This document shows positions 4,501 to 26,780 of a stretch of 64,000 nucleotides of DNA, in pieces (position 1 is the stretch's first letter; each line of letters opens with the position of its first letter). A model generated the notes under the pieces. It saw nothing but the letters and a program-made list of their open reading frames with translations, was not told the origin of the DNA and ran no database searches. Position numbers and translations under genes: made by a program. The stretch spans positions 32,001-96,000 of IMG/VR virus record IMGVR_UViG_3300005573_000054. One strand, written 5' to 3'. Source of the DNA: a virus.

Positions 4501-5166
4501 ATGGATAAGAAAAGTCGTATCGAGAAGCTGTTCTGTGATATTTTTGATGTTATCTTTGAAGGTTCGGGAGAAAACTGGAGAGATGATCAGCACCTAGTTG
4601 AGACTCCAAGTAGGTTGTCTAAGATGTTTCTAGATGAGATCTTCATGAGGGTTTCGGGAACTGTAAATGAAACTCGGAATTCGAAGACGTTGTTCGATAA
4701 CAGAAGTAAGAATACAGTTGTTGAAGTGAAGAATCTTGTTGTGAAGGCATTCTGTGCTCATCATCTTGCTCCTTTTGTTGGTCATGCACGTGTCAGGTAC
4801 CTCCCTAAAAACTGGATTTTAGGGCTTTCCAAATTTCAAAGACTTCTCTCTGATCAGTGTGGAAGACCTTCCGTTCAAGAAGAGCTTACGTATAACTTTG
4901 CGAGGTCGCTTATAGAGTTGCTTGATCCTATCTTTCTTAATGTTAAGATGGCTTGTGTACATACGTGCATGGTCTCAAGGGGAGTGAAGCTTGACCAAGC
5001 TGTTACTGTTACAGAGTTTGATTACAATGAGAGTAGAGGGCTTCGATTCCTGCTAAACGAGGCCGATATTACTGAAGTTTACCCTCGTTTAGGTGAGACG
5101 ATGGAGAAAGAGATCTATGAGATTATGGAAAATCTCAAAACTGATTCAAGTAGGAGAACAAGTTAG
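4501..5166 (+). CDS. folE: GTP cyclohydrolase I (first step of 7-deazaguanine or folate synthesis)
   Basis: ETPSRL, FCAHHLAPF, GLSKF.R, VQEELT, HTCMVSRGV motifs. Confidence 0.92.
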   Translation: MDKKSRIEKLFCDIFDVIFEGSGENWRDDQHLVETPSRLSKMFLDEIFMRVSGTVNETRNSKTLFDNRSKNTVVEVKNLVVKAFCAHHLAPFVGHARVRYLPKNWILGLSKFQRLLSDQCGRPSVQEELTYNFARSLIELLDPIFLNVKMACVHTCMVSRGVKLDQAVTVTEFDYNESRGLRFLLNEADITEVYPRLGETMEKEIYEIMENLKTDSSRRTS

Positions 5167-6091: not shown

Positions 6092-6127
6092 GCCCCTCCC
6101 GAGCCGGACGGGAGGGGCACTTTTTTT
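6092..6127 (+). terminator. Intrinsic terminator
   Basis: 10-bp GC stem GCCCCTCCCG/CGGGAGGGGC followed by T7. Confidence 0.85.
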
Positions 6128-6131
6128 AAAA

Positions 6132-6181
6132 ACCCTATAGAGTAGCGGGGGGATGCTCTATAGGGTAATGATAAACCCCTT
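6132..6181 (+). promoter_or_regulatory. Hairpin/pseudoknot leader of the MoxR operon
   Basis: 13-bp stem 6132-6144/6154-6166; 9-nt loop GCGGGGGGA complementary to CCCCTT 6176-6181. Confidence 0.5.
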
Positions 6182-6200
6182 AAACCAAAAGGAGGTTGTC

Positions 6201-7202
6201 ATGCTTATAGTAAAAGACTTGTTTCAAGTCCTCCAAGAAGTTCTCCAAGATGTAGACAAGCTTCTCATAAGTGGATCTCCAGGAATCGGCAAGTCAGAAA
6301 TTATCTATCAAGTGTGTAACAAGTTGAATCTCAAGGTATACGAAACAAGACTATATGAACAAGGGGAGTCGGCAGCAGGGCTCCCGAGAAGTCAAGACGG
6401 TATAACAAGATTTGACAAGCCATTCTGGCTAGATGAGCTGATCAAGGGTGGATATCAAGTTCTGTTTCTAGATGACTTCCATCTAGTCCCATCACAAGTA
6501 CAGCGTTTTCTTTACAAGCTCCTCACACACAAGGAACTTCACGATTACAAGGTACCCCAAGATCTCAAAGTGATTCTAGCAGGAAACTTCAAGATTGATT
6601 CTGCAGACTCAAGTGAAGTCCAGTCACCGATTATGTCAAGACTCCATCTAGCTATCGAATACGAGCCCGATCCAGAGGTATTCCTCAAGTTTGCAAGATC
6701 TCAACAAGACAGATTTGATTCAAGAGTCATTGCGTTTATTCAAGCAAATCCAGATTTGCTTTATACCAAGGAGCCTCCAACAAGTGAAATGTTCCCGTGT
6801 CCGAGGACATGGGAATACGCTTCAAGACTGCTGTCCAAGACTAATGATCCAAGGTTCCTTCTAGGTGTTGTAGGCACAAGAGCAGGATCAATCTTTCAAG
6901 AATTCTGGAATTTACTGAATCAAGATTTTAACACGATAGTCAAGACAGTGTCATATAAGTCAAGTATTAAAGATCAAGTTATAGCAAGCTTAATTTCTGC
7001 TCAAGAGTATTGTAAAGAACAAGATGTGTCAAGAAAGTCCAACATCTTCAAGTACGTTGAACAGTTCAAGGACGAGATCAAGTTCTTATTCGCAAGAAGG
7101 TGTTTTGAGGTCAAGGAGATGGAGTTCATACAAGAACTTAAAGTCAAGAGTCCAGATATATACAAGACTATCATAGAACTAGGTAAGGAGCTTACAAGAT
7201 GA
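6201..7202 (+). CDS. MoxR-like (AAA_5-type) AAA+ ATPase
   Basis: Walker A GSPGIGKS, Walker B LFLDD, ILAGN, SR arginine finger, CPRTWE; RBS AAAAGGAGG before ATG 6201. Confidence 0.9.
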   Translation: MLIVKDLFQVLQEVLQDVDKLLISGSPGIGKSEIIYQVCNKLNLKVYETRLYEQGESAAGLPRSQDGITRFDKPFWLDELIKGGYQVLFLDDFHLVPSQVQRFLYKLLTHKELHDYKVPQDLKVILAGNFKIDSADSSEVQSPIMSRLHLAIEYEPDPEVFLKFARSQQDRFDSRVIAFIQANPDLLYTKEPPTSEMFPCPRTWEYASRLLSKTNDPRFLLGVVGTRAGSIFQEFWNLLNQDFNTIVKTVSYKSSIKDQVIASLISAQEYCKEQDVSRKSNIFKYVEQFKDEIKFLFARRCFEVKEMEFIQELKVKSPDIYKTIIELGKELTR

Positions 7203-8479
7203 ATACAAGTACGCTTAGTGAAGACAAGTTGATAAGTGTACTCAAGGTACAGGCATTCAAGTACACTTCAATGAATAGAATTCTAGAATATGAAATCAAG
7301 TTGGAAGATCTGAAACAAGTGGCCCCGCAAATTGCGGGGTATATTGACGACAAGCACAAGATTGTTATTGACAAGAGTTTAACAAGGGATGAACAAGTAG
7401 CAGTATTAATACACGAGGCATTACACGATGTTCTAGATCACATCAAGAGAGGTATGCGTCTAGAAGTATTCAACCAGCAACGAGATCAAGCTTTATGGAA
7501 TCTAGCGACAGACTACGTGATTAACAAGATAATATTAAGTTTAAACCTCAAGAAACATCCAGAAATACTTAAGAATGTGATACAAGTAGTTGACAAGTTT
7601 AGACCTGATCCAGAAAGCGATACAAGCGCAGAAGCCTTGTATAGGCTTCTCAAGAACAAGACCGAAGTCCAAGTGGAGAAACTAGAAGTTCAAATTCCAG
7701 GACAGAATCAAGGTCAAGGAGAACCAGATTCAATCGAGATTGTCAAGACAAGCGTAATTAACAAGGAAACAGGAGAAGTATTACAAGAGTCAGTACAAGT
7801 CCTCATCAGCAAGGAAGAAGCACAAGAGAGAAGCGAAAATCAACAAGAGGGAAAACAAGTGGATATCTTCAAGCTTCAAGAAAGTTTGAAACAAGCGGGG
7901 AACTCGTCTTCCCAGATGCTTCAAGAAATCACAGCAGCAAAATCAAGACTTAGTCTCAAGAATGAGTTGTCAAGTTATTTCGACAACCTCAAAACTCAAG
8001 GTCTTGATATAAGTTTCTTCGCAAGATCACCAAGAAGTACCGTTATCTCCTCAAGTTGTGGGTATAATGTTCCAGCATACGTCAATCCAAGGACGAAGAT
8101 TCTAGTTGCAATTGATTCAAGTGGATCAATAAGCAACAAGGAGTACTCGGAGTTTCTAGGGGTTTTAAGGAGAAACCTCAAGTACATTTATGGAAAACTA
8201 GTGTTATTCGACACAGAAGCTCAAGTTTATGATTTAGATTCAAGAGCAGTAGAAACACTAGAAAGAAAAGGGACTTTCAAGAGGGTTTTCTGTGGAGGCA
8301 CAAGTTTACGAGAGACCTTTAAGATTATTGAACAAGAGAAATTCAAACTAGCAATTATCATGACGGATCTAGAAGTTACTATTCCAGAGAAACCTAAGAA
8401 GCTTTCCAAGGTGTTGTGGATCGTCCCGTCGATTGACGGGACAAAGTTGCCAAGTTATGGAAAGGTTATTCAAGTGTAA
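7199..8479 (+). CDS. HExxH metallopeptidase-like plus vWA domain protein (DUF2201-like), MoxR partner
   Basis: HEALH, WNLATDYVIN, MIDAS DSSGS, GGTS, MTD; ATGA overlap with the ATPase gene. Confidence 0.9.
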   Translation: MNTSTLSEDKLISVLKVQAFKYTSMNRILEYEIKLEDLKQVAPQIAGYIDDKHKIVIDKSLTRDEQVAVLIHEALHDVLDHIKRGMRLEVFNQQRDQALWNLATDYVINKIILSLNLKKHPEILKNVIQVVDKFRPDPESDTSAEALYRLLKNKTEVQVEKLEVQIPGQNQGQGEPDSIEIVKTSVINKETGEVLQESVQVLISKEEAQERSENQQEGKQVDIFKLQESLKQAGNSSSQMLQEITAAKSRLSLKNELSSYFDNLKTQGLDISFFARSPRSTVISSSCGYNVPAYVNPRTKILVAIDSSGSISNKEYSEFLGVLRRNLKYIYGKLVLFDTEAQVYDLDSRAVETLERKGTFKRVFCGGTSLRETFKIIEQEKFKLAIIMTDLEVTIPEKPKKLSKVLWIVPSIDGTKLPSYGKVIQV

Positions 8480-8506
8480 TAAGAAAATAAAGAAAGGAGG
8501 TAGGAA

Positions 8507-9748
8507 ATGAAAACGCCTACCTTCGAACAAGTAGTTGCTCAAGTACATGAAGGCAAGTTCTTTGAAGACAAGGAAATTCTTATGTTGAGAGACCAGTATG
8601 AAACAAGTATAGCTCACGAACAAGCTAGACAAGGTTGGACAACGAACGACAAGGAAATTCTCATGTTACAAGACAGAGTGGGGCGATCAGTCGCCCATAT
8701 TCAAGCAGAACGAGGTTGGACAACTGAAGACAAGGAAATTCTCGCGTTACAAGATGTAACAGGGCGAACAGTCGCCCACGAACAAGCTAGACAAGGTTGG
8801 ACAACCGAAGACAAGGAAATACTCGAGTTTGAAGATAATGGGAGACGAACAGTCGCCCATACTCAAGCAGAACGAGGTTGGATCACAGAAGACAAGAAGA
8901 TTCTCAAGCTTTACGACAGAAGTGGTACAAGTGTGGCTCACACTCAAGCTAGACAAGGATGGATTACTGAAGACAAGGAGATACTCGAGTTGAAAAACAC
9001 AAGCGGGTGGACAGTTGTCCACGAACAAGCAGAACAAGGGTGGACAACGGAAGACAAGGAGATGCTCAAGCTGAAGGATTACTATGGGCGATCAGTCGCC
9101 CATATTCAAGCTAAACGAGGGTGGACAACCGAAGACAAGGAAATACTCAAGTTGAAAGATAAGTATGGTACAAGTGTGGCTCATATTCAAGCAGAACGAG
9201 GCTGGATTATAGAAGACAAGGAAATACTCAAGTTAGAGAACAATCATGGTACAAGTGTGGCTCATATTCAAGCAGAACGAGGTTGGATAACAGAAGATCC
9301 AGAAATTCTCAAGCTTCACGATAAGAGTGGTACAAGTGTAGCTCATATTCAAGCAAAACAAGGATGGACTACTGAAGACAAGGAAATACTCAAGTTGAAA
9401 GATACAAGTGGGTGGAGTGTTGCCCACCAACAAGCAGATCAAGGATGGTCAACAGAAGACAAGGAAATCCTCAAGTTGGACAACGACCATGGTACAAGTG
9501 TAGCTCATATTCAAGCAGAACGAGGTTGGGTGTTTGAAGATCCAGAGATTCTAGTTTTGATCATTCGAGGCGGCTTGACGGTCGCCGAAGTTCAAGCACG
9601 TTATTCAGGTTGGACTCCAGGGGAAGAAGTCAAGGAAAAGTTCATACAAGAACTTCGGAAAAACTTTCCAGAAGAGAGAGTACAAGAAATACTTTACAAT
9701 GTTGATAATCTAGCGAAAGAATACTTCAAGAAAATCCTATCGAAATAG
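8507..9748 (+). CDS. 27-aa ankyrin-like repeat protein 1 (12 internal repeats)
   Basis: Repeat xDxxGx[TS]VAHxQAxxGWTTEDKEILKL with N-cap TFEQVVAQV.EGKFFED and a helical C-cap. Confidence 0.9.
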   Translation: MKTPTFEQVVAQVHEGKFFEDKEILMLRDQYETSIAHEQARQGWTTNDKEILMLQDRVGRSVAHIQAERGWTTEDKEILALQDVTGRTVAHEQARQGWTTEDKEILEFEDNGRRTVAHTQAERGWITEDKKILKLYDRSGTSVAHTQARQGWITEDKEILELKNTSGWTVVHEQAEQGWTTEDKEMLKLKDYYGRSVAHIQAKRGWTTEDKEILKLKDKYGTSVAHIQAERGWIIEDKEILKLENNHGTSVAHIQAERGWITEDPEILKLHDKSGTSVAHIQAKQGWTTEDKEILKLKDTSGWSVAHQQADQGWSTEDKEILKLDNDHGTSVAHIQAERGWVFEDPEILVLIIRGGLTVAEVQARYSGWTPGEEVKEKFIQELRKNFPEERVQEILYNVDNLAKEYFKKILSK

Positions 9749-9757
9749 GAGGTGAGA

Positions 9758-10273
9758 ATGAAAGTGTATACTTTCGAACAAGTAGTCGCTCAAGTGAATG
9801 AAGGCAAGTTCTTTGAAGATAAGGAAATCCTCAAGCTTTGCGACAAGAACGGGTGGACAGTCGCCCATGAACAAGCTTCTCAAGGCTGGACAACGGAAGA
9901 CAAGGAGATACTCAAGCTTTGTGATAAGAATGGTACAAGTGTGGCACATTTACAAGCGCTTCACAAGTGGACAACGAACGACAAGGAAATACTCAAGCTT
10001 TGTGACGAGTTCAAGGTGAGTGTTGCTCACGAACAAGCGTTTCGAGGATGGGTAACAGAAGATCCAGAAATTCTAGCTTTAGCTACCACAAGTAACTTCC
10101 TAGTAGCGAAAATTCAAGCATACTATTCGGGTTGGACTCCAGAAGGAGAAACTAGAGAAAAGTTTGTACAAGAACTTCAAAAGAATTTCCCAGTGGAGAA
10201 AGTACAAGAAATACTTTACGATATTGATGGTCTAGCAAAAGAGTATTTCAAGAAAATCTTATTCGGGAGGTAG
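9758..10273 (+). CDS. Repeat protein 2 (3 repeats)
   Basis: Same caps and repeat; RBS AGGAGGTG before ATG 9758. Confidence 0.9.
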   Translation: MKVYTFEQVVAQVNEGKFFEDKEILKLCDKNGWTVAHEQASQGWTTEDKEILKLCDKNGTSVAHLQALHKWTTNDKEILKLCDEFKVSVAHEQAFRGWVTEDPEILALATTSNFLVAKIQAYYSGWTPEGETREKFVQELQKNFPVEKVQEILYDIDGLAKEYFKKILFGR

Positions 10274-10276
10274 GAG

Positions 10277-11593
10277 ATGGAGATGTGTACTTTTAAGCAA
10301 GCAATTACTCAAGTAAATGAGGGTAAGTTCTTTGAAGACCCAGAAATCCTCAAGTTATATAATGTCTTCGGGCGGACAATCGCCCATGAACAAGCTTCTC
10401 AAGGCTGGATAACGGAAGACAAGGAGATACTCAAGTTAAAGGATGATCATGGTACAAGTGTAGCTCACGTTCAAGCAGAACATGGATGGACAACGGAAGA
10501 CAAGGAGATACTCAAGCTTCAAAATAACAGTGGGCTGACTGTTGCCCACAAACAAGCAGAACAAGGATGGACAACTGAAGATCCAGAGATTCTTAAGTTG
10601 TCCGACTGGTCAAGCTGGAGTGTTGCTCACACTCAAGCTAGACAAGGATGGACCACTGAAGACAAGGAGATACTCAAGTTACATAATATGTATGGGTGGG
10701 CGGTTGCCCACGAACAAGCTAAACAAGGTTGGATAACAGAAGACAAGGAAATTCTCAAGCTTCGCGACAAGAGTGGCACAAGCGTAGCTCATACACAAGC
10801 ATCTCGAGGATGGACTACAGAAGACAAGGAAATACTCATGTTACAAGACAGAATGGGGCGAACAGTCGCCCACGTTCAAGCAGATCAAGGTTGGACTACG
10901 GAAGACAAGGAAATTCTCAAGCTTCGCGACAAGAGTGGCACAAGCGTAGCTCATGTACAAGCATCTCGAGGATGGACAACGGAAGACAAGGAAATTCTCA
11001 TGTTGAAAGATAAGCATAATACAAGTGTAGCACATCTACAAGCAGAACGAGGATGGTCAACTGAAGACAAGGAGATACTCAAGTTAGAAGACGATCATGG
11101 TACAAGTGTTGCGTATAAACAAGCTAGACAAGGATGGATCACGAATGACGAGGAAATTCTCAAGCTTTGCGATGGGGGTGGCTGGTCCATCGCCCATAGA
11201 CAAGCTTCTCAAGGCTGGATAACTAATAACAAGGAGATACTCAAGTTGAAAGATAGATATGGTACAAGTGTAGCGCATTTACAAGCAGAACGAGGTTGGA
11301 CAACAGATGACAAGGAAATACTCAAGCTTCAAAATAACAGTGGGCTGACTGTTGCCCACAAACAAGCAGAACAAGGATGGACAACTGAAGATCCAGAGAT
11401 TCTTCTCCTCACGGAAAAACTAGGAGTCACTGTAGCCGAAGTTCAAGCAAGCTATTCAGGTTGGATATTAAGCGAAGACATTCAAGAAAAACTACGCCAA
11501 GAACCTTATAAGCTTAGTAAAGAGAAGCTTAACAAGTTAATATCATCAGTTAACGAAGCTTCAAGGCGATTCTTCAAGAATGCTCTAAAATAA
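10277..11593 (+). CDS. Repeat protein 3 (13 repeats)
   Basis: Same family; C-cap class SEDIQEKLRQEPY. Confidence 0.9.
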   Translation: MEMCTFKQAITQVNEGKFFEDPEILKLYNVFGRTIAHEQASQGWITEDKEILKLKDDHGTSVAHVQAEHGWTTEDKEILKLQNNSGLTVAHKQAEQGWTTEDPEILKLSDWSSWSVAHTQARQGWTTEDKEILKLHNMYGWAVAHEQAKQGWITEDKEILKLRDKSGTSVAHTQASRGWTTEDKEILMLQDRMGRTVAHVQADQGWTTEDKEILKLRDKSGTSVAHVQASRGWTTEDKEILMLKDKHNTSVAHLQAERGWSTEDKEILKLEDDHGTSVAYKQARQGWITNDEEILKLCDGGGWSIAHRQASQGWITNNKEILKLKDRYGTSVAHLQAERGWTTDDKEILKLQNNSGLTVAHKQAEQGWTTEDPEILLLTEKLGVTVAEVQASYSGWILSEDIQEKLRQEPYKLSKEKLNKLISSVNEASRRFFKNALK

Positions 11594-11607
11594 AAGGAGG
11601 TGGGAAA

Positions 11608-12366
11608 ATGGGAGTATGTGTCACTTTCGAACAAGTAGTCGCTCAAGTGAATGAAGGCAAGTTCTTCGAAGACCCAGAAATCCTCAAGCTTTATAACGAG
11701 AACGGGTGGAGTGTTGCCCATGAACAAGCGGATCAAGGATGGATAACGGAAGACAAGGAAATACTCAAATTAAAAAACAAGTATAACATAAGTGTAGCTT
11801 ATGTTCAAGCGTTCCGAGGATGGACAACAGAGGATCCAGAAATACTCAAGATTCAGGACAAGAACGGGTGGACTATCGCCCACGAACAAGCGGTTCGAGG
11901 ATGGACAACTGAAGACAAGGAAATACTTATGTTAAAAGATAAGTTTGGAACAAGTGTTGCCCATGAACAAGCGAAACAAGATTGGGTAACTGAAGACAAG
12001 GAAATACTTATGTTAAAAGACCAACACGGAACAAGTGTTGCTTATATTCAAGCTAGACGAGGATGGACAACTGAAGACAAGGAAATACTTAAACTAGAAG
12101 ACGATCAAGGTGTAACTGTAGCTCATGTTCAAGCAGAGCAAGGTTGGACGACAGAAGATCCAGAGATTCTAGTCTTGGCCACTTATGATGGCGTAACAGT
12201 GGCCGAAGTTCAAGCAGAACATTCAGGATGGGAGCTAGAAGGAGAGACCAGGGAAAGGTTTATTCAAGAGCTTCAAAAGAACTTTTCAAAGAGAAAAGCG
12301 CAAGAAGTACTTCACAATGTTGACAAGATGAGGAAAAAGTACTTCAAGGAAGCTCTGTTGGAATAA
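11608..12366 (+). CDS. Repeat protein 4 (6 repeats)
   Basis: Same family; RBS AAGGAGGTG. Confidence 0.9.
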   Translation: MGVCVTFEQVVAQVNEGKFFEDPEILKLYNENGWSVAHEQADQGWITEDKEILKLKNKYNISVAYVQAFRGWTTEDPEILKIQDKNGWTIAHEQAVRGWTTEDKEILMLKDKFGTSVAHEQAKQDWVTEDKEILMLKDQHGTSVAYIQARRGWTTEDKEILKLEDDQGVTVAHVQAEQGWTTEDPEILVLATYDGVTVAEVQAEHSGWELEGETRERFIQELQKNFSKRKAQEVLHNVDKMRKKYFKEALLE

Positions 12367-12370
12367 TAAG

Positions 12371-12460
12371 ATGAGACGAGACAATGTTCCAATATACAAT
12401 CAAGTAGTCACTCAAGTAAACAAGAAACACACAAGAGAAGATTTAATCTCAAGCCCTTAA
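12371..12460 (+). pseudogene. N-cap remnant of a repeat-protein gene
   Basis: MRRDNVPIYNQVVTQVNK resembles the N-cap MNRNDTLMYKQVIAQVNK of the 16674 paralog, then stops. Confidence 0.55.
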
Positions 12461-12484
12461 TTTTTCTGTTAAGAGGTAGAGAAC

Positions 12485-12919
12485 ATGAAAGCGTGTCTTT
12501 TTGAACAAGTAGTTGCTCAAGTAAATGAAGGTAAGTTTTTTGAAGACAAAGAGATACTCAAGCTTCACGACGAGGACGGACGAACAGTTGCCCACGTTCA
12601 AGCAGAACAAGGTTGGATTACAGAAGACAAGGAAATACTCAAGTTGAAAGATATAAGCGGGTGGACAGTTGCCCACCAACAAGTGGTTCGAAGATGGATA
12701 ACAGAAGACCCAGAGATTCTAGTTTTGGCTACCATAAGAAACATCCTAGTGGCAGAAGTTCAAGCATGTTATTCAGGTTGGACCCCAGAAGAGGAAACCA
12801 GGGAAAAGTTCGTGCAAGAACTTCGGAAGAATTTTCCAGAGGAGAAAGCACAAGAGATACTTCACAATGTTGATAGTCTAGCAAAAGAGTATTTCAAGAA
12901 AATCTTATTCGGGAGGTAG
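12485..12919 (+). CDS. Repeat protein 5 (2 repeats)
   Basis: Same family. Confidence 0.88.
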   Translation: MKACLFEQVVAQVNEGKFFEDKEILKLHDEDGRTVAHVQAEQGWITEDKEILKLKDISGWTVAHQQVVRRWITEDPEILVLATIRNILVAEVQACYSGWTPEEETREKFVQELRKNFPEEKAQEILHNVDSLAKEYFKKILFGR

Positions 12920-12922
12920 GAG

Positions 12923-13678
12923 ATGGAGATGTGTACTTTTAAGCAAGCAATTACTCAAGTAAATGAGGGTAAGTTCTTTGAAGATAAAGAGATACTCAAG
13001 CTTTGCAACGGGAACGGGTGGAGTGTTGCCCATGAACAAGCATTTCGAGGATGGACAACAGAAGACAAGGAAATCCTCATGTTGTATGATGATACTGGGT
13101 GGACTGTCGCCCATGAACAAGCTTCTCAAGGTTGGACAACAGAGGATCCAGAAATTCTCAAGTTTTGCGATGATGTTGGACAGACTGTCGCCCACGTTCA
13201 AGCATCTCGAGGATGGACAACCGAAGACAAGGAAATACTCAAGCTTCAAAATGACAGTGGGTGGACAGTCGCCCATGAACAAGCAAGCAGAAGATGGACA
13301 ACGAACGACGAGGAAATCCTCAAGTTAAAAGACAACCACGAGTGGACTGTTGCCCATATTCAAGCTAGACGAGGATGGATAACTGAAAACAAGGAAATAC
13401 TCAAGTTGAAAGACGATCGTGGTACAAGTGTAGCTTATGTTCAAGCATCTCAAGGATGGATAACAGAAGATCCAGAAATTCTAGTCTTGGCCACTCACGA
13501 TGACATAACAGTAGCCGAGGTTCAAGCTAAATACTCAGGATGGGAACCAGAAGGGGAAGTCAAGGAAAAGTTTGTGCAAGAACTCCAGAAAAACTTTTCA
13601 AAGAAGAAGATACAAGAAATACTTCAGGATATCAACGAGTTGAGGAAAAAGTATTTCGAGAGAATCTTATTAGTGTAA
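12923..13678 (+). CDS. Repeat protein 6 (6 repeats)
   Basis: Same family. Confidence 0.9.
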   Translation: MEMCTFKQAITQVNEGKFFEDKEILKLCNGNGWSVAHEQAFRGWTTEDKEILMLYDDTGWTVAHEQASQGWTTEDPEILKFCDDVGQTVAHVQASRGWTTEDKEILKLQNDSGWTVAHEQASRRWTTNDEEILKLKDNHEWTVAHIQARRGWITENKEILKLKDDRGTSVAYVQASQGWITEDPEILVLATHDDITVAEVQAKYSGWEPEGEVKEKFVQELQKNFSKKKIQEILQDINELRKKYFERILLV

Positions 13679-13817
13679 CGAGATAAATCAAGATAAACAA
13701 ACAAGAAATATCAAAGAAAGAACCATTATAATTGTTTAATAAGTTTTTTCGTGTTGAAGTTACAAGAAAATTTTTCCAAAAATATCTCAAAAAATCTTAT
13801 AGACGGGAGGTGAGGAA

Positions 13818-14810
13818 ATGGAAGCGTATACTTTTGAACAAGCAATCACTCAAGTGAATGAAGGTAAGTTTTTCGAAGACAAGGAGATACTTAAACTTCA
13901 CGATGAGAATGGGTGGACTGTTGCCCATGAACAAGCTAAACGAGGGTGGACAACTGAAGATAAGGAGATCCTCAAGCTTCACGATAAATCATGGCGAAGT
14001 GTAGCCCATGAACAAGCGAAACGAGGATGGACAACAAATAACAAGGAGATACTCATGTTACGTGACACTTTCAGATGGTCTGTTGCTCATATTCAAGCAG
14101 AACATGGGTGGACAACTGAAAATAGAGAGATTCTCAAGTTGTTCGACTGGTCCAACTGGACTGTCGCCCATGAACAAGCAAGACGAGGGTGGACAACTGA
14201 AGACAAGGAAATTCTTAGACTTTATAGCGACTATGGATATACTGTAGCTTATATCCAAGCAAAACATGGATGGATAACAAATGACAAAGAAATACTCAAA
14301 TCGAAAGATAAGTATGATACAAGTGTAGCGCATCTACAAGCAAAACATGGCTGGACCACCGAAGATAAGGAGATACTCAAGCTTTATGATAAGAATAAGT
14401 GGTCTGTTGCTCATGAACAGGCAAGACAAGGATGGACTACTGAAGATAAGGAAATCCTCAAGTTAGAAGACAATTGTGGTACAAGTGTCGCTCATATTCA
14501 GGCAGAACAAGGATGGACAACTAAAGATAAGGAGATACTCAAGTTGCATGATGTCTGTGGGTGGACAGTCGCCCATGAACAAGCTAAACGTGGTTGGATA
14601 ACTGAAGATCCAGAGATTCTTCTTTTCGCAGAAAGACTGGGAGTCACTGTTGCAGAAATTCAGGTAGAATATTCAGGCTGGACACTAAGCGAAGACATCC
14701 AAGAAAAACTACGGCAAGAACCTTACAGACTCAGTGAAGAGGAGTTTAACAAGTTAATGTCGTCAATCAACGAAGCTTCAAGACGGTTCTTCAAGAATAC
14801 TCTAAGATAG
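13818..14810 (+). CDS. Repeat protein 7 (9 repeats)
   Basis: Same family; RBS GGGAGGTG. Confidence 0.9.
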   Translation: MEAYTFEQAITQVNEGKFFEDKEILKLHDENGWTVAHEQAKRGWTTEDKEILKLHDKSWRSVAHEQAKRGWTTNNKEILMLRDTFRWSVAHIQAEHGWTTENREILKLFDWSNWTVAHEQARRGWTTEDKEILRLYSDYGYTVAYIQAKHGWITNDKEILKSKDKYDTSVAHLQAKHGWTTEDKEILKLYDKNKWSVAHEQARQGWTTEDKEILKLEDNCGTSVAHIQAEQGWTTKDKEILKLHDVCGWTVAHEQAKRGWITEDPEILLFAERLGVTVAEIQVEYSGWTLSEDIQEKLRQEPYRLSEEEFNKLMSSINEASRRFFKNTLR

Positions 14811-14824
14811 AAGGAGGCGGGAAA

Positions 14825-15817
14825 ATGGAAGCGTATACTTTCGAACAAGCAATCACTCAAGTGAATGAAGGCAAGTTCTTCGAAGATAAGGAGATACTCA
14901 AACTTCACAATAAGAATGGGTGGACTGTAGCCCATGAACAAGCGGAGCATGGTTGGACAACTGAAGACAAGGAGATACTTAGACTTTGCGACAAGAATGG
15001 GTGGACTGTGGCCCATGAGCAAGCTAGACGAGGGTGGACTACTGAAGACAAAGAGATACTCAAGTTGAGAGATCAGTACGGAGTAAGTGTCGCTCATATT
15101 CAAGCAGAACGAGGATGGACAACCGAAGACAAGGAGATACTCATGTTACGTAATATTTATGGGTGGACTGTTGCCCATGAGCAAGCTAGACAAGGGTGGA
15201 CAACTGAAGACCCAGAGATTCTTTTTCTCGTAGATAGACTAGAAATCACTGTAGCTGAAATACAAGCAAAACATGGATGGATGACAAATGATAAAGAAAT
15301 ACTCAAATTGAAAGATATGTACGGCACAAGTGTAGCACATTTTCAAGCAGAACATGGTTGGACTACAGAAGACAAGGAGATACTCAAGCTTTGTGATAAG
15401 AATAACTGGTTTGTTGCTCACGAACAAGCGAAACGAGGATGGACGACTGAAGACAAAGAGATACTCAAGTTAGATGACGATCAAGGTGTAAGTGTCGCTC
15501 ATATTCAAGCAGAACGAGGATGGACAACTGAAGACAAAGAGATACTCATGTTGCGTAATATCTATGGGTGGACTGTTGCCCATGAACAAGCTAGACAAGG
15601 GTGGACAACTGAAGATCCAGAGATTCTAGTCTTAGCCACTCGTGATAACTTAATGGTAGCCGAAGTTCAAGCAAGCTATTCAGGCTGGACACTAAGCGAA
15701 GACATTCAAGAAAAACTGCGACAAGAACCTTATAGACTTAGTGAAGAGGAGCTTAACAAGTTAATGTCGTCAATCAACGAAGCTTTAAGACGGTTCTTTA
15801 AGAATGTTCTAAGATAA
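14825..15817 (+). CDS. Repeat protein 8 (9 repeats, one being an internal terminal-type VAEIQA unit)
   Basis: Same family. Confidence 0.9.
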   Translation: MEAYTFEQAITQVNEGKFFEDKEILKLHNKNGWTVAHEQAEHGWTTEDKEILRLCDKNGWTVAHEQARRGWTTEDKEILKLRDQYGVSVAHIQAERGWTTEDKEILMLRNIYGWTVAHEQARQGWTTEDPEILFLVDRLEITVAEIQAKHGWMTNDKEILKLKDMYGTSVAHFQAEHGWTTEDKEILKLCDKNNWFVAHEQAKRGWTTEDKEILKLDDDQGVSVAHIQAERGWTTEDKEILMLRNIYGWTVAHEQARQGWTTEDPEILVLATRDNLMVAEVQASYSGWTLSEDIQEKLRQEPYRLSEEELNKLMSSINEALRRFFKNVLR

Positions 15818-15831
15818 AAGGAGGTGAGAAA

Positions 15832-16677
15832 ATGGAAACATATACTTTTGAACAAGCGATTGCCCAAGTGGATAAAGGTAAGTTTTTCGAAGACAAGGAG
15901 ATACTTAAACTTCACGACGAAAACGGGTGGACTGTTGCCCATAAACAAGCTAAGTATGGTTGGACAACTGAAAACAAGGAGATACTCAAGTTAAAGGATA
16001 ACCGTGGTATAAGTGTAGCCCATGAACAAGCTAAACGAGGGCGGACAACAGAAGACCCAGAGATTCTTAAGTTGTCCGACTGGTCCAGATGGACTGTTGC
16101 TCATATTCAAACAGAACATGGGTGGACAACTGAAGACAAGGAAATACTCAAGTTAAACGACAAATGGGAACGGGCTGTGGCCTACATTCAAGCTAGATAT
16201 GGATGGACTACAGAAGACAAGGAAATACTCAAGTTAAGAGACAACCATGGGCGGTCTGTTGCCCACGAACAAGCGGAGCTAGGATGGACAACGGAAGACA
16301 AGGAAATTCTCAAACTTTGTAACAAGAGCGGTACAAGCGTAGCACATTTACAAGCGGAACAAGGATGGACTACAGAAGACCCAGAAATCCTCAAGCTTTG
16401 CAATAAGTACGGTGTAAGTGTAGCTCATGAACAAGCTAAACGTGGTTGGATAACTGAAGATCCAGAGATCCTAGTTTTAGCCGCCACAGGAAACTTCCTA
16501 GTAGCAGAAGTTCAAGCAGAGTATTCAGGTTGGAAACCAGCGGAGGAAGTCGAGGAAAAGTTCGTGCGAGAACTTCAGAAGAATTTTCCAGAGGAGAAAG
16601 TACAAGAAATACTTCATAATATTGATGATCTAGCAAAAAATATTTCGAGAAAATCTTGTTTGGGAGGTAGGAGATGA
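15832..16677 (+). CDS. Repeat protein 9 (7 repeats; -1 frameshift in the last codons)
   Basis: Same family; the A-run at ~16635-16640 is one base short relative to paralog ends LAK.YF.KILFGR*. Confidence 0.88.
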   Translation: METYTFEQAIAQVDKGKFFEDKEILKLHDENGWTVAHKQAKYGWTTENKEILKLKDNRGISVAHEQAKRGRTTEDPEILKLSDWSRWTVAHIQTEHGWTTEDKEILKLNDKWERAVAYIQARYGWTTEDKEILKLRDNHGRSVAHEQAELGWTTEDKEILKLCNKSGTSVAHLQAEQGWTTEDPEILKLCNKYGVSVAHEQAKRGWITEDPEILVLAATGNFLVAEVQAEYSGWKPAEEVEEKFVRELQKNFPEEKVQEILHNIDDLAKNISRKSCLGGRR

Positions 16678-17834
16678 ATCGAAACGACACTCTAATGTAT
16701 AAACAAGTAATTGCTCAAGTAAATAAGGGTAAGCTCTTCGAAGACAAGGAGATACTCAAGCTTTGTGATAAGTACGGTACAAGTGTAGCTCACGTTCAGA
16801 CAGAACGAGGGTGGACAACCGAAGATAAGGAAATTCTTACACTTCATAAAAAGTCTGGATGGACTGTTGCCCATCAACAGGCAGAACGTGGATGGACAAC
16901 AAATAACAAGGAGATACTCAAGCTTTGCAACAAAAGCGGTATAAGTGTAGCTCACGTTCAAGCTAAACATGGGTGGACAACTGAAGACAAGGAAATACTC
17001 AAGCTTCATGATGACTTTGGGCGGACTGTAGCTCATGAACAAGCTAAACAAGGATGGACCACTGAAGACAAAGAAATACTCGAACTTTGTGATGTCACTG
17101 GATGGACTGTAGCTCATGAACAAGCTAAACAAGGATGGACTACTGAAGACAAAGAAATACTCGAACTTTGTGATGATTCTGTATGGACTGTAGCTCATGA
17201 ACAAGCTAAACAAGGATGGACTACTGAAGACAAGGAAATACTCGAACTTTGTAATGACGATGGATGGTTTGTTGCCCATGAACAAGCTAAACATGGGTGG
17301 ACAACTGAAGACAAGGAAATACTCAAGCTTCATGATGACTCTGGATGGACTGTAGCTCATGAACAAGCTAAACAAGGATGGACTACTGAAGACAAGGAGA
17401 TACTTAAACTATGTAACAACCCTGGATGGACTGTAGCTCATGAACAAGCTAAACAAGGATGGACTACTGAAGACAAGGAGATACTCAAGTTAAGAAACCA
17501 GTATGATCGGACTGTTGCTCATGAACAAGCTTCTCACGGATGGACGATAGAAAACAAGAAAATACTTAAGTTGAAAGATAAACATGGTACAAGTGTAGCA
17601 CATTTACAGGCAGAGCAAGGATGGACAACAGAAGATCCAGAAATCCTTTTACTCACAGATAAATCAGGGACTACCGTCGCAGAAATTCAAGCAAGGCGTT
17701 CAGGTTGGTTACCAAGTGAAGACACTCAAGAAAAGATACGGCAAGAGCTCTGTAAATCTGCGGTAAGGAGGTTCAACAGTTTAATAACAGCTGCTTCGAA
17801 AAAGTTTTTCCAACAGACTCTGAAAGGAGAGTAA
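16674..17834 (+). CDS. Repeat protein 10 (11 repeats)
   Basis: Same family; central units homogenised to WTVAHEQAKQGW. Confidence 0.9.
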   Translation: MNRNDTLMYKQVIAQVNKGKLFEDKEILKLCDKYGTSVAHVQTERGWTTEDKEILTLHKKSGWTVAHQQAERGWTTNNKEILKLCNKSGISVAHVQAKHGWTTEDKEILKLHDDFGRTVAHEQAKQGWTTEDKEILELCDVTGWTVAHEQAKQGWTTEDKEILELCDDSVWTVAHEQAKQGWTTEDKEILELCNDDGWFVAHEQAKHGWTTEDKEILKLHDDSGWTVAHEQAKQGWTTEDKEILKLCNNPGWTVAHEQAKQGWTTEDKEILKLRNQYDRTVAHEQASHGWTIENKKILKLKDKHGTSVAHLQAEQGWTTEDPEILLLTDKSGTTVAEIQARRSGWLPSEDTQEKIRQELCKSAVRRFNSLITAASKKFFQQTLKGE

Positions 17835-17867
17835 TATAGAAACCACAACCTAAATGAGGTAAAGAAA

Positions 17868-18461
17868 ATGAAAGTATTTACTTTTAAGCAAGCGGTTGCC
17901 CAAGTAACTAAAGGTAAGTTCTTTGAAGATAAAAAAATCCTCAAGCTTCACGACAAGAACGGGTGGACTGTTGCCCATGAACAAGCGAAGCGAGGATGGA
18001 CCACCGAAGACAAGGAAATACTCAAGCTTTGTGATAAGTACGGAGTGAGTGTAGCCTATGAACAAGCGAGACATGGCTGGACCACTGAAGACAAGGAAAT
18101 TCTCAAGCTTTGCAACAAAAGCGGTACAAGTGTAGCTCATATACAAGCGAGATATGGCTGGACTACTGAAGATAAGGAGATACTCAAGCTTCGTAATAAG
18201 TACGGTACAAGTGTAGCACACGAACAAGCGTACCGAGGATGGGTAACAGAAGACCCTGAGATTCTAGTTTTAACTACCATAAGTAACTTCCTAGTAGCAA
18301 AAGTTCAAGCATGTTATTCAGGTTGGACTCCTGAAGGGGAAACCAGAGAAAAGTTCGTACAAGAACTCCAAAAGAATTTCCCAGTGGAGAAAGTACAAGA
18401 AATACTTTACGATATTGATGATCTAGCAAAAAAGTATTTCAAGAAAATTTTGTTAGAATAG
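17868..18461 (+). CDS. Repeat protein 11 (4 repeats)
   Basis: Same family; C-cap nearly identical to that of protein 2. Confidence 0.9.
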   Translation: MKVFTFKQAVAQVTKGKFFEDKKILKLHDKNGWTVAHEQAKRGWTTEDKEILKLCDKYGVSVAYEQARHGWTTEDKEILKLCNKSGTSVAHIQARYGWTTEDKEILKLRNKYGTSVAHEQAYRGWVTEDPEILVLTTISNFLVAKVQACYSGWTPEGETREKFVQELQKNFPVEKVQEILYDIDDLAKKYFKKILLE

Positions 18462-18472
18462 GAGGTGAGAAA

Positions 18473-19384
18473 GTGGAGTCGTATACTTTTGAACAAGCGT
18501 TTATTCAAGTACTTAGTGGCAAATTTTTCCAGGACAAAGAAATACTTAAATTATATAACGAAGATGGACGGACTATTGCTCATGAACAAGTAAGACAAGG
18601 ATGGAGAACAGAAGATAAAGAGATACTCAATTTATATGACAAAGATAGATGGACTGTTGCCCATCAACAGGCAGAACGTGGATGGACAACAAATAACAAG
18701 GAGATACTCAAGCTTTGTGATAAGTACGGTACAAGTGTAGCTCACGTTCAAGCAGAACACAGATGGACTACTGAAGACAAGGAAATACTCAGGCTTTGCA
18801 ACGACTCTGGACGAACAGTCGCTCATATTCAAGCATCTCATGGATGGACTACAGAAGACCTAGAAATCCTCAAGCTTTGTGGTAATCTTGAATGGACTGT
18901 CGCTCATGAACAAGCAAAACAAGGATGGACAACAGAAGATCCAGAAATCCTCAAGCTTTGCGACAAGAACGGGTGGACTGTGGCTCATGAACAAGCACGC
19001 CAAGGATGGACTACTGAAGACAAGGAGATACTCAAACTTCGCGACAAGACCGGGTGGACTGTTGCTCACGAACAAGCAGATCGAGGTTGGACAACAGATG
19101 ACAAGGAGATACTCAAGTTATGTAATATCTTTGGTCGGTTTATCGCTCATGTACAAGCGCTTCGAGGATGGACCACAGAGGATCCAGAGATTCTAGTCTT
19201 GGCCGCTTTTAACAACTTAACAGTAGCAGAAGTTCAAGCAGAACATTCAGGATGGGAACCGGAAGGAGAAGTCAAGGAAAAGTTCGTACAAGAACTTCAG
19301 GAGAACTTTCCTAAGGAAATAGTACAAGAAATACTCTGTAACATTGATAAGTTGAGGAAAAAGTATTTCAAGAGAATCTTATAA
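18473..19384 (+). CDS. Repeat protein 12 (8 repeats), GTG start
   Basis: Same family; RBS AGGAGGTG. Confidence 0.9.
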   Translation: MESYTFEQAFIQVLSGKFFQDKEILKLYNEDGRTIAHEQVRQGWRTEDKEILNLYDKDRWTVAHQQAERGWTTNNKEILKLCDKYGTSVAHVQAEHRWTTEDKEILRLCNDSGRTVAHIQASHGWTTEDLEILKLCGNLEWTVAHEQAKQGWTTEDPEILKLCDKNGWTVAHEQARQGWTTEDKEILKLRDKTGWTVAHEQADRGWTTDDKEILKLCNIFGRFIAHVQALRGWTTEDPEILVLAAFNNLTVAEVQAEHSGWEPEGEVKEKFVQELQENFPKEIVQEILCNIDKLRKKYFKRIL

Positions 19385-19399
19385 ACGGGAGGTGAGAAA

Positions 19400-19588
19400 A
19401 TGGAAACATATATTTTTAAGGAAGTAATCATTCAGGCAAAACGCTCAGGATGGATGTTGAATGAAGATATTCAAGAAAAACTACAACAAGAACCTTGTAA
19501 ATTTAACGAAGAAAGATATAATAAATTAGTATTATCAACTAATAAAGCTTCAAGACAATTCTTCCAAAATATCCTAAAAAAAGAGTAA
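19400..19588 (+). CDS. Repeat protein 13: N-cap fused directly to C-cap (zero repeats)
   Basis: METYIFKEVIIQ joined to AKRSGWMLNEDIQEKLQQEP...; intact RBS GGGAGGTG. Confidence 0.75.
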   Translation: METYIFKEVIIQAKRSGWMLNEDIQEKLQQEPCKFNEERYNKLVLSTNKASRQFFQNILKKE

Positions 19589-19593
19589 CAAAA

Positions 19594-20472
19594 ATGAATA
19601 TAAGAAACTATAATCTAAGCGACGAAGAAATTCTAGAATTACCTATTGAGAAACAACGTCTAGTTGCGTATGCCCAAGTTCAACGTGGGTGGACCACAGA
19701 AAACAAAACAATCCTCCAACTCTCTTTATACTGGGGACGAACAATAGCTCATGAACAAGCCAGACAAGGATGGACAACAGAAGATAAAGAAATACTTACA
19801 ACAGTAGATATTTTTGGAGAATATGTAGCTCATATTCAAGCGCAGAATGGCTGGGTTACGGAAGATCCAGAGATTCTTAAACTTGCTAACAAAGAAAAAC
19901 AAACAGTTGCTCATATTCAAGCAGAACAAGGATGGACAACAAATAACAAGGAAATTCTCAAACTTTGTAACTCTAGAAAATGGACTGTTGCCCATATTCA
20001 AGCTAGACGAGGATGGACAACTGAAGACATAGAAATCCTCAAGTTAACTAACAAGCTTGGTCAGTCCGTCGCTTTTTTCCAGGCAATGAATGGATGGACT
20101 ACAGAGAATCTAGAAATACTCAAACTTCACGATAAAAATGGGTGGACTGTTGCCCATGAACAAGCTAGACGTGGATGGACTACAGAAAATTTCAAGATTC
20201 TTAAACTAGCTGACAAAAATGGATGGACTGTTGCTCATGAACAAGCTAAGCGTGGATGGATTACAAGAGATTTAAGAGTTCTTACTATCAAAGATATGAG
20301 AAACAATACAGTAGCTGAAATACAAGCAAAACACTCTGGATGGACTCCTGATGATGAACTCGAGAAGAAGTTACTTCAAAAGCTTCGAAAACGTTCTGTA
20401 GAAGAAGCATCAAGAGTGTTGAAATCAATAAACGATTTATCTCTAGAGTTTTTTAGAAACGCCTTTAGATAG
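19594..20472 (+). CDS. Repeat protein 14 (divergent caps)
   Basis: Same 27-aa repeat. Confidence 0.88.
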   Translation: MNIRNYNLSDEEILELPIEKQRLVAYAQVQRGWTTENKTILQLSLYWGRTIAHEQARQGWTTEDKEILTTVDIFGEYVAHIQAQNGWVTEDPEILKLANKEKQTVAHIQAEQGWTTNNKEILKLCNSRKWTVAHIQARRGWTTEDIEILKLTNKLGQSVAFFQAMNGWTTENLEILKLHDKNGWTVAHEQARRGWTTENFKILKLADKNGWTVAHEQAKRGWITRDLRVLTIKDMRNNTVAEIQAKHSGWTPDDELEKKLLQKLRKRSVEEASRVLKSINDLSLEFFRNAFR

Positions 20473-20486
20473 TAAGGAGGTATAAA

Positions 20487-21335
20487 ATGGATGAAGATCG
20501 GTCTCAAATTCAAATTATGGAAAAGAAGTATCCTAAAAAGAAACTTCTAGAAATTGTTGATGAGACTCTGAAGAAAACTCTTGCACATGAGTTAGCCATC
20601 CAAGGAATGATTACAACTTCAAGAAAGATTTTACTTACCGCTGATAGAAATGGGAGAACTGTTGCCCATTATCAAGCTCTCTCTGGATATGTAGTTACAG
20701 AATCAGATATTTTAAAACTTGCTGATCTATGTGGAACGACGGTTGCACATCTACAGGCAAGTAAGGGATGGACTACAAAATCAAAAAAGATCTTAAAACT
20801 AGCTGATATAGATGGATGGTCAGTAGCTCATGAAATAGCTAGCAAAGGACACTTTTTTCCAGAAACTCAAAAGGAAGTTTTAAAAATCAGCGATATAAGC
20901 GGGTGGACTGTTGCCCATGAACAGGCAAGTAGAGGATGGATAACAAACGACAAGGAAATCCTCAGTCTTTCTACTCTTAGGGGATGGACTGTTGCTCATG
21001 AACAAGCAAAACATAAATGGACCACAGAAGATCCAGAGATACTAATGTTGAGAGATAAAGAGAAGTGGTCTGTGGCACATGAGCAAGCGTATCAAGGATG
21101 GACTACAAATGATATTAATATCCTTAAAATACGTGATGCTCTTGGAGTGTGTGTGTCTATGGTTCAGATCGAAGTTTCTGGGTGGATTTATCCTTCCAGT
21201 TTGGAAGAAAAGTTTTCCCGAGATTGTTTGTCTCTTATGAAGAAGATTTACACCAAAAAGGGTATTAATATGTTCCCGGAGGAGGAAAAAGATGGAAAGG
21301 AAGTTAAAACCAAGACAAGTAGTTTGCTCTTGTAA
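20487..21335 (+). CDS. Repeat protein 15 (most divergent in the array)
   Basis: GWTVAHEQA-type repeats, different termini. Confidence 0.85.
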   Translation: MDEDRSQIQIMEKKYPKKKLLEIVDETLKKTLAHELAIQGMITTSRKILLTADRNGRTVAHYQALSGYVVTESDILKLADLCGTTVAHLQASKGWTTKSKKILKLADIDGWSVAHEIASKGHFFPETQKEVLKISDISGWTVAHEQASRGWITNDKEILSLSTLRGWTVAHEQAKHKWTTEDPEILMLRDKEKWSVAHEQAYQGWTTNDINILKIRDALGVCVSMVQIEVSGWIYPSSLEEKFSRDCLSLMKKIYTKKGINMFPEEEKDGKEVKTKTSSLLL

Positions 21336-22604: not shown

Positions 22605-22622
22605 TGTGTATCATCTCCAGCA

Positions 22623-23722: not shown

Positions 23723-23744
23723 TATACGCTATTACTTATACGCA

Positions 23745-26757: not shown

Positions 26758-26780
26758 AACTAAAAAACAGAGGCCATTTG

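What the first reader, a model, noticed from the sequence alone, without database searches (positions are those of the whole stretch)
6201..9748. MoxR ATPase and metallopeptidase-vWA pair heads the repeat-protein operon
Seen: ATPase, HExxH-vWA and the repeat genes are co-oriented with 4-nt overlap or short gaps, with no obvious terminator between them, and share the CAAG overlay. Known: MoxR/vWA pairs act as chaperone or remodelling machines in which the vWA protein is the substrate adaptor. Inference: the variable repeat proteins could be interchangeable specificity modules delivering targets to an unfoldase/protease, a programmable protein-inactivation system.
Basis: inference. Interest (0 to 1): 0.78.

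Follow-up and report, generated by a model that had tools for sequence, protein, structure and literature searches.

The report
Second MoxR-vWA pair heading repeat-gene array
An uncultured jumbo phage carries a second, diverged copy of a common phage ATPase plus peptidase-vWA chaperone pair at the head of a long gene unit of ankyrin-like repeat proteins; the layout is real, but a working partnership between pair and repeats is unproven.

Summary
Gene 6201-7202 encodes a MoxR-like AAA+ ATPase. Gene 7199-8479 encodes a zincin (HExxH) plus vWA protein of family DUF2201. They overlap by ATGA. They follow a strong terminator and precede 14 tightly packed genes of a 27-residue ankyrin-like repeat, with no + strand terminator between. 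All share an extreme, strand-specific CAAG enrichment (43-52 per kb, in all three codon frames). Individual CAAG sites are conserved in relatives.

The pair itself is a known kind. It matches phage N4 core genes gp24/gp25 and was described for jumbo phages by Iyer et al. 2021. This genome holds two such pairs. The one in the finding belongs to a separate "type 2" clade whose Walker B motif reads DD instead of DE.

Linkage to repeat proteins is partial. Three of seven type-2 lineages have an alpha-helical repeat gene within 1.5 kb, from two unrelated repeat families. Four lineages have none. The 27-residue repeat family occurs in 15 other contexts without the pair.

Most likely this is a chaperone and maturation module co-expressed with a lineage-specific binder array. 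The proposed programmable unfoldase/protease is not excluded but has no direct support. The scan's other notes already flag the CAAG overlay and the repeat array on this same DNA.

The parts
6092..6128 (+). Strong intrinsic terminator that closes the upstream 99-aa gene and marks the 5' boundary of the unit
   Evidence: 10-bp stem with 9 GC pairs followed by a T run. No CAAG occurs between 5756 and 6224.
6132..6200 (+). Leader with the inverted repeat CCCTATAGAG...CTCTATAGGG, followed by the Shine-Dalgarno sequence AAGGAGG (6191-6197)
   Evidence: Read directly from the sequence.
6201..7202 (+). Type-2 MoxR-like AAA+ ATPase, 333 aa. Walker A GSPGIGKS, Walker B LFLDDF, sensor 1 AGN, Arg in IMSRL.
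   Evidence: Pfam AAA and AAA_5. PHROG 1297 at E 1.9e-43. 29.7% identity to N4 gp24 at E 6e-23. Profile best match among solved structures is the Midasin AAA ring, E 4e-8. Alignments.
7199..8479 (+). Zincin (HExxHxxxxH) plus vWA/MIDAS protein, 426 aa, family DUF2201_N + DUF2201. Overlaps the ATPase stop by ATGA.
   Evidence: (PHROG 1314 at E 2.4e-38). The tree places it in a clade apart from N4 gp25 and from the genome's other copy.
8507..21335 (+). Fourteen tandem genes of a 27-residue ankyrin-like repeat. They share an N-cap and have two C-cap types.
   Evidence: The model of the 144-aa member has pLDDT 95.7. Top fold matches are DARPins and ankyrin domains, but only at TM 0.36-0.50.
19400..19588 (+). 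Cap-only mini-gene of 62 aa (N-cap start, terminal repeat and type-B C-cap, no internal repeats) inside the 209-nt 'gap'
   Evidence: Translation. Matches C-cap type B.
6225..21100 (+). Strand-specific CAAG overlay. It starts 24 nt after the ATPase start codon and falls from about 50 to about 13 per kb along the unit. It is also present in the intergenic spacers.
   Evidence: Site positions are 82-87% conserved in relatives of 85% nucleotide identity, against 54% for all 4-mers.
26778..27665 (+). Outlying fifteenth repeat-family gene (295 aa) without the shared caps. CAAG at 19 per kb.

Best explanation
Genes 6201-8479 encode a diverged second copy ('type 2') of the widespread phage pair of a MoxR-like AAA+ ATPase and a zincin-vWA co-chaperone. 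This is the kind represented by N4 gp24/gp25, Pfam DUF2201 and PHROGs 1297/1314.

By analogy with RavA-ViaA, CbbQ-CbbO, NorQ-NorD and Midasin, I infer the following mechanism. The ATPase forms a ring. The MIDAS site of the vWA protein grips an acidic residue of a client protein. The N-terminal HExxH domain clips the client or the adaptor itself.

In this phage lineage the pair forms the first two genes of one expression unit. The unit starts after terminator 6092-6128 and runs on through a fast-evolving array of ankyrin-like binder genes. All of it lies under the same CAAG nucleotide constraint.

I read the relation to the repeats as co-expression of two modules of the same infection stage. 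Any functional coupling is lineage-specific at most. The pair does not need the repeats, and the repeat family does not need the pair.

Shown: the domain content, the motifs, the gene layout, the shared overlay, and the distribution in relatives. Inferred: ring formation, client binding, peptidase activity and co-transcription.
For: Domains and motifs.

The pair is adjacent in N4 and close in PBS1-like phages and PA5oct. It counts among the 14 N4-like core genes and is a middle gene there (PMC4193335). It was described for jumbo phages as a MoxR plus peptidase-vWA chaperone pair (PMC7824862).

A second full-length pair lies at genome positions 14279-16588, with 27% and 25% identity to this one. 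The tree puts the two vWA proteins in different deep clades.

One expression unit is indicated by the upstream terminator, the absence of an internal + strand terminator, an SD before every gene, and the ATGA overlap. CAAG is continuous through genes and spacers, at 21 per kb in 526 nt of spacer.

Relative L014 (83% identity) has the same ATPase-vWA-array order with different repeat numbers.

Independence of the two modules: the pair occurs without repeats in L027, L028-30, L031 and L033-35. The repeat family occurs without the pair in 11 viral contigs, two clusters on the Deferribacter megaplasmid, a defence island and another jumbo contig.
Against: Three of seven type-2 lineages carry a helical-repeat gene within 1.5 kb of the vWA gene. 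The sister lineage L011 carries a non-homologous 26-residue 'WWDP' repeat protein in exactly the slot that the array occupies here. This looks like a conserved slot rather than chance.

The shared C-caps are specific to this lineage and could be docking modules.

Co-transcription is inferred, not measured.

The Walker B motif reads DD instead of DE across the clade, so the ATPase may not behave like a standard MoxR.
Confidence: 0.5

Rival explanations
1. The repeat proteins are interchangeable specificity adaptors. They dock through their conserved caps on the vWA or ATPase protein and deliver host targets for ATP-driven unfolding and zincin cleavage, giving a programmable protein-inactivation system.
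For: The genes form one unit with a shared overlay. Caps are conserved while the repeats vary. Helical-repeat genes recur next to type-2 vWA genes in 3 of 7 lineages, from two unrelated repeat families in the same slot. There is a known analogue in poxvirus ANK-PRANC adaptors for cullin ligases (my own knowledge).
Against: Four of seven type-2 lineages lack the repeats, and the wider family lacks them too. The repeat family is found 15 times elsewhere without the pair. MoxR-type ATPases are remodelling chaperones, not known to feed a protease (established knowledge of RavA, CbbQ and NorQ). No chambered protease is present. The catalytic Glu of Walker B is Asp here.
Confidence: 0.17
2. The repeat proteins are clients rather than adaptors. 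The pair folds, assembles or proteolytically matures the repeat proteins (for example by trimming a cap), or loads them into a larger structure such as the virion.
For: Iyer et al. propose virion assembly with peptidolytic processing for this pair type (PMC7824862). The gene order puts the chaperone first and the clients after it. The caps are lineage-specific.
Against: The same repeat family folds confidently as a plain solenoid (pLDDT 95.7) and exists in many genomes without the pair. The pair of this genome that lies near the terminase-like gene is the other one.
Confidence: 0.1
3. The adjacency has no functional meaning. An expanding gene family inserted into a permissive site downstream of a core gene pair, and the CAAG overlay merely marks a regional expression or replication regime.
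For: In L028 the vWA gene is followed by two small genes and QueD. Here FolE lies upstream and QueE/QueC downstream of the array, so the array looks like an insertion into a conserved block. A second CAAG-dense unit at the contig end carries unrelated genes, including a Cdc48-like AAA ATPase.
Against: Helical repeat genes recur beside type-2 vWA genes in lineages with only 28-38% vWA identity and in different relative positions.
Confidence: 0.2

Closest known systems
Phage N4 gp24 (AAA+ ATPase) and gp25 (vWFA), core middle genes of N4-like phages; PHROGs 1297/1314; Pfam DUF2201_N + DUF2201
   Same: The two-gene architecture, the domain order and the HExxH and MIDAS motifs are the same. The ATPase shares 29.7% identity at E 6e-23.
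   Different: The vWA protein here falls in a separate deep clade. Walker B reads DD here and DE in N4, PA5oct and PBS1-like phages. This genome has two pairs. N4 has no repeat array downstream and no CAAG overlay (3-4 per kb).
MoxR plus metallopeptidase-vWA chaperone/co-chaperone pair of group 2.2 jumbo phages (Iyer et al. 2021, PMC7824862); the MoxR-vWA pair of Acidianus two-tailed virus
   Same: The predicted pair type is the same, in a jumbo phage. Hits include Rak2-like, PBECO4-like and GAP32-like phages.
   Different: Those authors propose virion assembly. The copy studied here sits among RNA polymerase, nucleotide and 7-deazaguanine genes and heads a binder array. The genome's other copy is the one near the terminase-like gene.
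Cellular MoxR-vWA systems: RavA-ViaA, CbbQ-CbbO, NorQ-NorD, CobS-CobT, Midasin
   Same: An AAA_5-type ATPase is paired with a MIDAS-bearing adaptor. The profile's best match among solved structures is the Midasin ring.
   Different: The vWA protein has an N-terminal zincin domain. The ATPase is below the cut-off for the specific MoxR models. Walker B reads DD. The client is unknown.
Poxvirus ANK-repeat/PRANC (F-box-like) host-range proteins; DARPins
   Same: Tandem families of variable ankyrin-like binders carry a conserved terminal module. DARPins are the top fold matches.
   Different: The repeat is 27 residues, not 33. There is no Pfam Ank match, and TM-scores are only 0.36-0.50. No ligase link is known, and the cap has no relative outside the array.

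Membership tests
MoxR-type AAA+ ATPase (AAA_5 clade) | Walker A motif GxxGxGK[ST] | tested here: met
   GSPGIGKS, invariant in the alignments.
MoxR-type AAA+ ATPase (AAA_5 clade) | Walker B motif hhhhDE followed by N | tested here: not met
   The motif is LFLDDFH. DD is conserved in six type-2 lineages, whereas N4 gp24, PA5oct, Internexus, L019 and L024 have DExN.
MoxR-type AAA+ ATPase (AAA_5 clade) | Sensor 1 Asn and the conserved Arg of the xxxDRF/SRL motif | tested here: met
   N129 (AGN) and R147 (IMSRL) are invariant across 10 sequences.
MoxR-type AAA+ ATPase (AAA_5 clade) | Score above the curated family cut-off | tested here: inconclusive
   AAA_5 scores 23.8 bits against a cut-off of 22, and bpMoxR 16.2 against 27. 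No NCBIfam model comes near its cut-off. The profile matches the Midasin AAA ring at E 4e-8, with ClpA next.
MoxR-type AAA+ ATPase (AAA_5 clade) | Helix-2 insert and pre-sensor-1 beta-hairpin | not tested
MoxR-type AAA+ ATPase (AAA_5 clade) | Adjacent vWA/MIDAS partner gene | tested here: met
   The genes overlap by 4 nt.
DUF2201 zincin-vWA protein (N4 gp25 kind) | N-terminal DUF2201_N domain with HExxH | tested here: met
   43.8 bits against a cut-off of 23.2. H72, E73, H76 and H81 are invariant. There is a weak profile hit to the minimal zincin MJ1213, E 0.05.
DUF2201 zincin-vWA protein (N4 gp25 kind) | C-terminal vWA-like domain with the MIDAS residues DxSxS..T..D | tested here: met
   50.3 bits against a cut-off of 26.4. 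D306, S308, S310, T368 and D390 are invariant.
Ankyrin repeat (downstream genes) | 33-residue repeat matching the Pfam Ank models | tested here: not met
   The period is 27 residues. There is no Ank hit at E 0.01; only compositional hits with no matched stretch appear.
Ankyrin repeat (downstream genes) | Ankyrin solenoid fold | tested here: inconclusive
   All top Foldseek matches are DARPins or ankyrin domains with probability about 1, but E is 0.007 or worse and TM is 0.36-0.50.
ATP-dependent protease (Clp/Lon/FtsH type unfoldase-protease) | Unfoldase ring coupled to a chambered protease domain or subunit | tested here: not met
   No such protease domain is found in genes 6201-21335. The only peptidase motif is the zincin domain on the vWA protein.

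The most novel reading that the evidence does not exclude
The type-2 MoxR-like/zincin-vWA pair is an ATP-driven engine with a conserved 'binder slot' next to it. Different phage lineages fill this slot with unrelated alpha-helical repeat families: 26-residue WWDP repeats in L011 and L012, and here a 14-gene diversifying array of 27-residue ankyrin-like repeats with lineage-specific docking caps. The engine would remodel or cleave whatever host proteins the binders capture. This would be a phage analogue of adaptor-programmed degradation.
Probability: 0.17. Interest if true: 0.85.

Novelty: new variant of a known kind. Interest (0 to 1): 0.5.

Why it matters
The gp24/gp25-type pair is a core gene set of N4-like phages and is common in jumbo phages, yet its function is unknown. 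This genome offers three handles on that question: two diverged copies in one genome, a recurrent neighbour in the form of helical binder genes, and a shared, positionally conserved nucleotide overlay. If the binders prove to be adaptors, this would be the first adaptor-programmed remodelling or proteolysis machine in a phage, together with a natural DARPin-like library. If they do not, the locus still defines a distinct clade with a DD Walker B motif and a clean co-expression unit for study.

Tried and rejected
- Complex prediction of the vWA protein (alignment A2) with the 144-aa repeat protein (A3) gave 'no answer' with score 0.00. I do not use it as evidence either way.
- Megablast of the locus against GenBank phages found no match.
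- A single-protein scan of viral contigs for the vWA protein found none.
- Neither single protein has a significant relative among solved structures.
- NCBIfam gave nothing near any cut-off.
- Rfam and tRNA scans of the window found nothing.
- I tested whether the two genes upstream of the repeat genes in jumbo contig L007 (268 and 427 aa) were a hidden ATPase-vWA pair. They are not.
- I tested whether the WWDP repeats and the 27-residue repeats are homologous. hhalign gave probability 0.05% and BLAST gave nothing.
- The WWDP model has low confidence (pLDDT 59.5), so I use only its helical pattern.
- A scan of viral contigs for WWDP proteins found none.
- A search of GenBank phages for the repeat protein gave only weak hits in an unannotated stretch of Stx2c phages.
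- The caps have no relative outside the array in this contig.
- A literature search for a CAAG motif in phages found nothing.
- I considered and rejected a codon-usage origin for CAAG. All three frames are used, and synonymous permutation gives about 30 sites against 52-55 observed.
- I also rejected CAAG being simply carried by the repeat sequence. Repeat homologues elsewhere have only 4-8 per kb.
- The first maximum-likelihood tree run did not finish. The tree I used is FastTree, with weaker support values.
Full report
Setting. The window is positions 32001-96000 of a 159,483-bp linear IMG/VR phage record that CheckV estimates to be about 50% complete. It encodes split multisubunit RNA polymerase subunits, GTP cyclohydrolase I, QueE, QueC and NrdD, so it is a jumbo-phage fragment. 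Of 145 long non-overlapping ORFs, 143 are on the + strand. Co-orientation therefore says nothing about operon structure.

Check of the observation. The ATPase ORF opens at 6153, but AAGGAGG lies 7 nt before the ATG at 6201 and orthologues start at that Met. The ATPase stop and the vWA start overlap as ATGA. The vWA gene ends at 8479 and the first repeat gene starts at 8507. Fourteen repeat genes follow up to 21335, each with its own GGAGG-type ribosome-binding site, separated by -4 to 33 nt except for three longer spacers. One of those 'spacers' in fact holds a 62-aa cap-only mini-gene. A strong terminator sits at 6092-6128, directly upstream. No convincing + strand terminator lies between 6201 and 21335.

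The CAAG overlay is real and extreme. The ATPase has 52 sites and the vWA gene 55, which is 43-52 per kb against about 5 per kb elsewhere. CTTG is nearly absent. In these two non-repeat genes the sites fall about equally in all three codon frames. Resampling codons from background usage predicts 16-17 sites. Permuting the genes' own synonymous codons predicts about 30. Shuffling codon order predicts 12-16. The enrichment therefore acts on amino-acid choice, codon choice and codon context together. It starts 24 nt after the start codon, is absent from the 470 nt upstream, continues through the spacers at 21 per kb, and fades along the unit. In relatives with about 85% nucleotide identity, 82-87% of CAAG sites are conserved in place, against 54% of all 4-mers.

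What the two proteins are. The vWA protein matches DUF2201_N and DUF2201 above cut-off and PHROG 1314. The residues of HExxHxxxxH and of the MIDAS motif (DxSGS, GGT, TD) are invariant in an alignment that includes distant relatives. The ATPase matches PHROG 1297 at E 1.9e-43. It matches Pfam AAA and AAA_5 only marginally, and the specific MoxR model bpMoxR below its cut-off. A profile built from seven relatives finds the Midasin AAA ring as the best solved match at E 4e-8. Walker A, the sensor 1 Asn and the conserved Arg are all present. Walker B, however, reads LFLDDFH. This DD is conserved in six lineages of the clade, whereas N4 gp24, PA5oct, a PBS1-like phage and two further viral contigs have the canonical DExN. 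'MoxR-like' is therefore a fair label, but one defining motif is not met.

What is already known. tblastn finds the ATPase in 730 GenBank phage records and the vWA protein in 93, including N4-like, PBS1-like, PA5oct-like and Rak2/PBECO4-like phages. In N4 the homologues are the adjacent genes gp24 and gp25. They are two of the 14 core genes of N4-like phages and are middle genes (PMC4193335). Iyer et al. 2021 described exactly this MoxR plus metallopeptidase-vWA pair in group 2.2 jumbo phages and proposed a role in virion assembly (PMC7824862). The pair as such is not new, and none of those phages has a repeat array beside it.

Two pairs in one genome. A second full-length pair lies at genome positions 14279-16588, near a terminase-like gene. 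It shares 27% (ATPase) and 25% (vWA) identity with the pair in the finding. An exhaustive profile search found 9842 relatives of the vWA protein, but only 22 at E 1e-30 or better. In a FastTree of 71 sequences the finding's vWA protein sits in a 25-member clade apart from the clade that holds the other copy, N4 gp25 and PA5oct. Support is moderate and branches are long. I call this clade type 2.

Linkage in relatives. Seven type-2 lineages had readable neighbours:
- (1) Contig L014 (83% identity) repeats the order ATPase, vWA, array, but with different gene lengths of 174, 557, 204, 259, 307 and 242 aa. L010, L013 and L016 end too early to tell, yet they keep the CAAG density.
- (2) L011, the sister lineage (38% vWA identity), has ATPase and vWA followed at once by a 266-aa protein of 26-residue 'WWDP' repeats, and then by another repeat protein.
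- (3) L012/L018 (26-28% identity) carry a WWDP protein (44% identical to that of L011) 1.4 kb upstream of the vWA gene, with no ATPase adjacent.
- (4-7) L027, L028-30, L031 and L033-35 have the pair but no helical repeat gene nearby. L031 has a beta-solenoid repeat protein upstream and a reverse transcriptase downstream.

WWDP repeats and the 27-residue repeats show no detectable homology.

Looking from the repeat side gives a clearer negative. The 27-residue family occurs as tandem clusters on the Deferribacter desulfuricans megaplasmid, in a bacterial defence island beside a Thoeris TIR gene and a type ISP enzyme, in another jumbo-phage contig, and in 11 IMG/VR contigs. No vWA or ATPase homologue was found in up to 8-10 kb of flank in any of these. 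The shared C-caps are confined to this phage lineage.

The repeat proteins. The 144-aa member is modelled with pLDDT 95.7 as a solenoid of short helix, bridge, helix units with a two-helix C-cap. All top fold matches are DARPins or natural ankyrin domains, but at TM 0.36-0.50 and E above 0.001. This is an ankyrin-like fold with a shortened 27-residue repeat, not a demonstrated member of the family.

Interpretation. The safest reading is that 6201-8479 is a type-2 paralogue of a known phage chaperone and co-chaperone module. It is expressed as the head of one unit together with a lineage-specific, rapidly changing binder array. The synteny supports insertion of the array: FolE lies upstream here, QueD lies downstream of the pair in L028, and QueE/QueC lie after the array here. 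Nothing found here points to unfolding coupled to proteolysis.

The CAAG overlay links the pair and the array at the level of DNA or RNA. It also covers a second unit at the contig end, which begins after another terminator with a Cdc48-like AAA ATPase. It therefore marks a class of units rather than this system alone. Its mechanism is unknown.

Noticed in passing
window 6225-21100; genome 157568-159483 (L025:7569-9484): There is a second CAAG-dense unit (31-35 per kb) at the contig end. It starts about 20 nt inside a 475-aa Cdc48/VCP-like AAA ATPase gene, after a terminator and a GATATATATAAT-like promoter motif. Distances between CAAG sites below 11 nt are depleted, with peaks near 11-14 and 19-20 nt. 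Sites are conserved in position in relatives. The mechanism is unknown.
   Followed up: partly
window 19400-19588: A 62-aa gene consists only of the N-cap start, the terminal repeat and the type-B C-cap. It is a zero-repeat member of the array, consistent with repeat loss by recombination.
   Followed up: partly
window 22600-24500: A non-coding repeat field of about 1.9 kb lies about 1.3 kb after the array. It has three 110-nt copies, 71-nt tandem repeats, and some 25 copies of a 15-nt CTATATAAGCTGCTG-like iteron. It is a candidate replication origin or promoter array.
   Followed up: partly
window 4501-5166, 29469-31689; genome 27127-27603: 7-Deazaguanine pathway genes (FolE, QueD, QueE, and QueC with a 215-aa N-terminal extension) flank the locus. 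No DpdA/TGT gene is found in the half-genome held.
   Followed up: partly
window 31696-33765: The anaerobic ribonucleotide reductase NrdD is split into two adjacent ORFs of 520 and 167 aa that cover consecutive parts of the Pfam model.
   Followed up: no
L031:7050-10975: In a 168-kb relative, the type-2 vWA gene is flanked by a hexapeptide/beta-solenoid repeat protein upstream and a 326-aa reverse transcriptase (RVT_1) downstream. This may be a diversity-generating retroelement.
   Followed up: no
L008 and L009 (Deferribacter desulfuricans megaplasmid AP011530.1): Tandem clusters of about 8 and 7 genes of the same 27-residue repeat family lie among IS605/TnpB elements on a thermophile's megaplasmid. 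This is the nearest named source of the family.
   Followed up: partly
L006:9260-15693: A single gene of the repeat family sits between a ThsB-TIR (Thoeris) gene and a type ISP restriction enzyme in a bacterial defence island.
   Followed up: no
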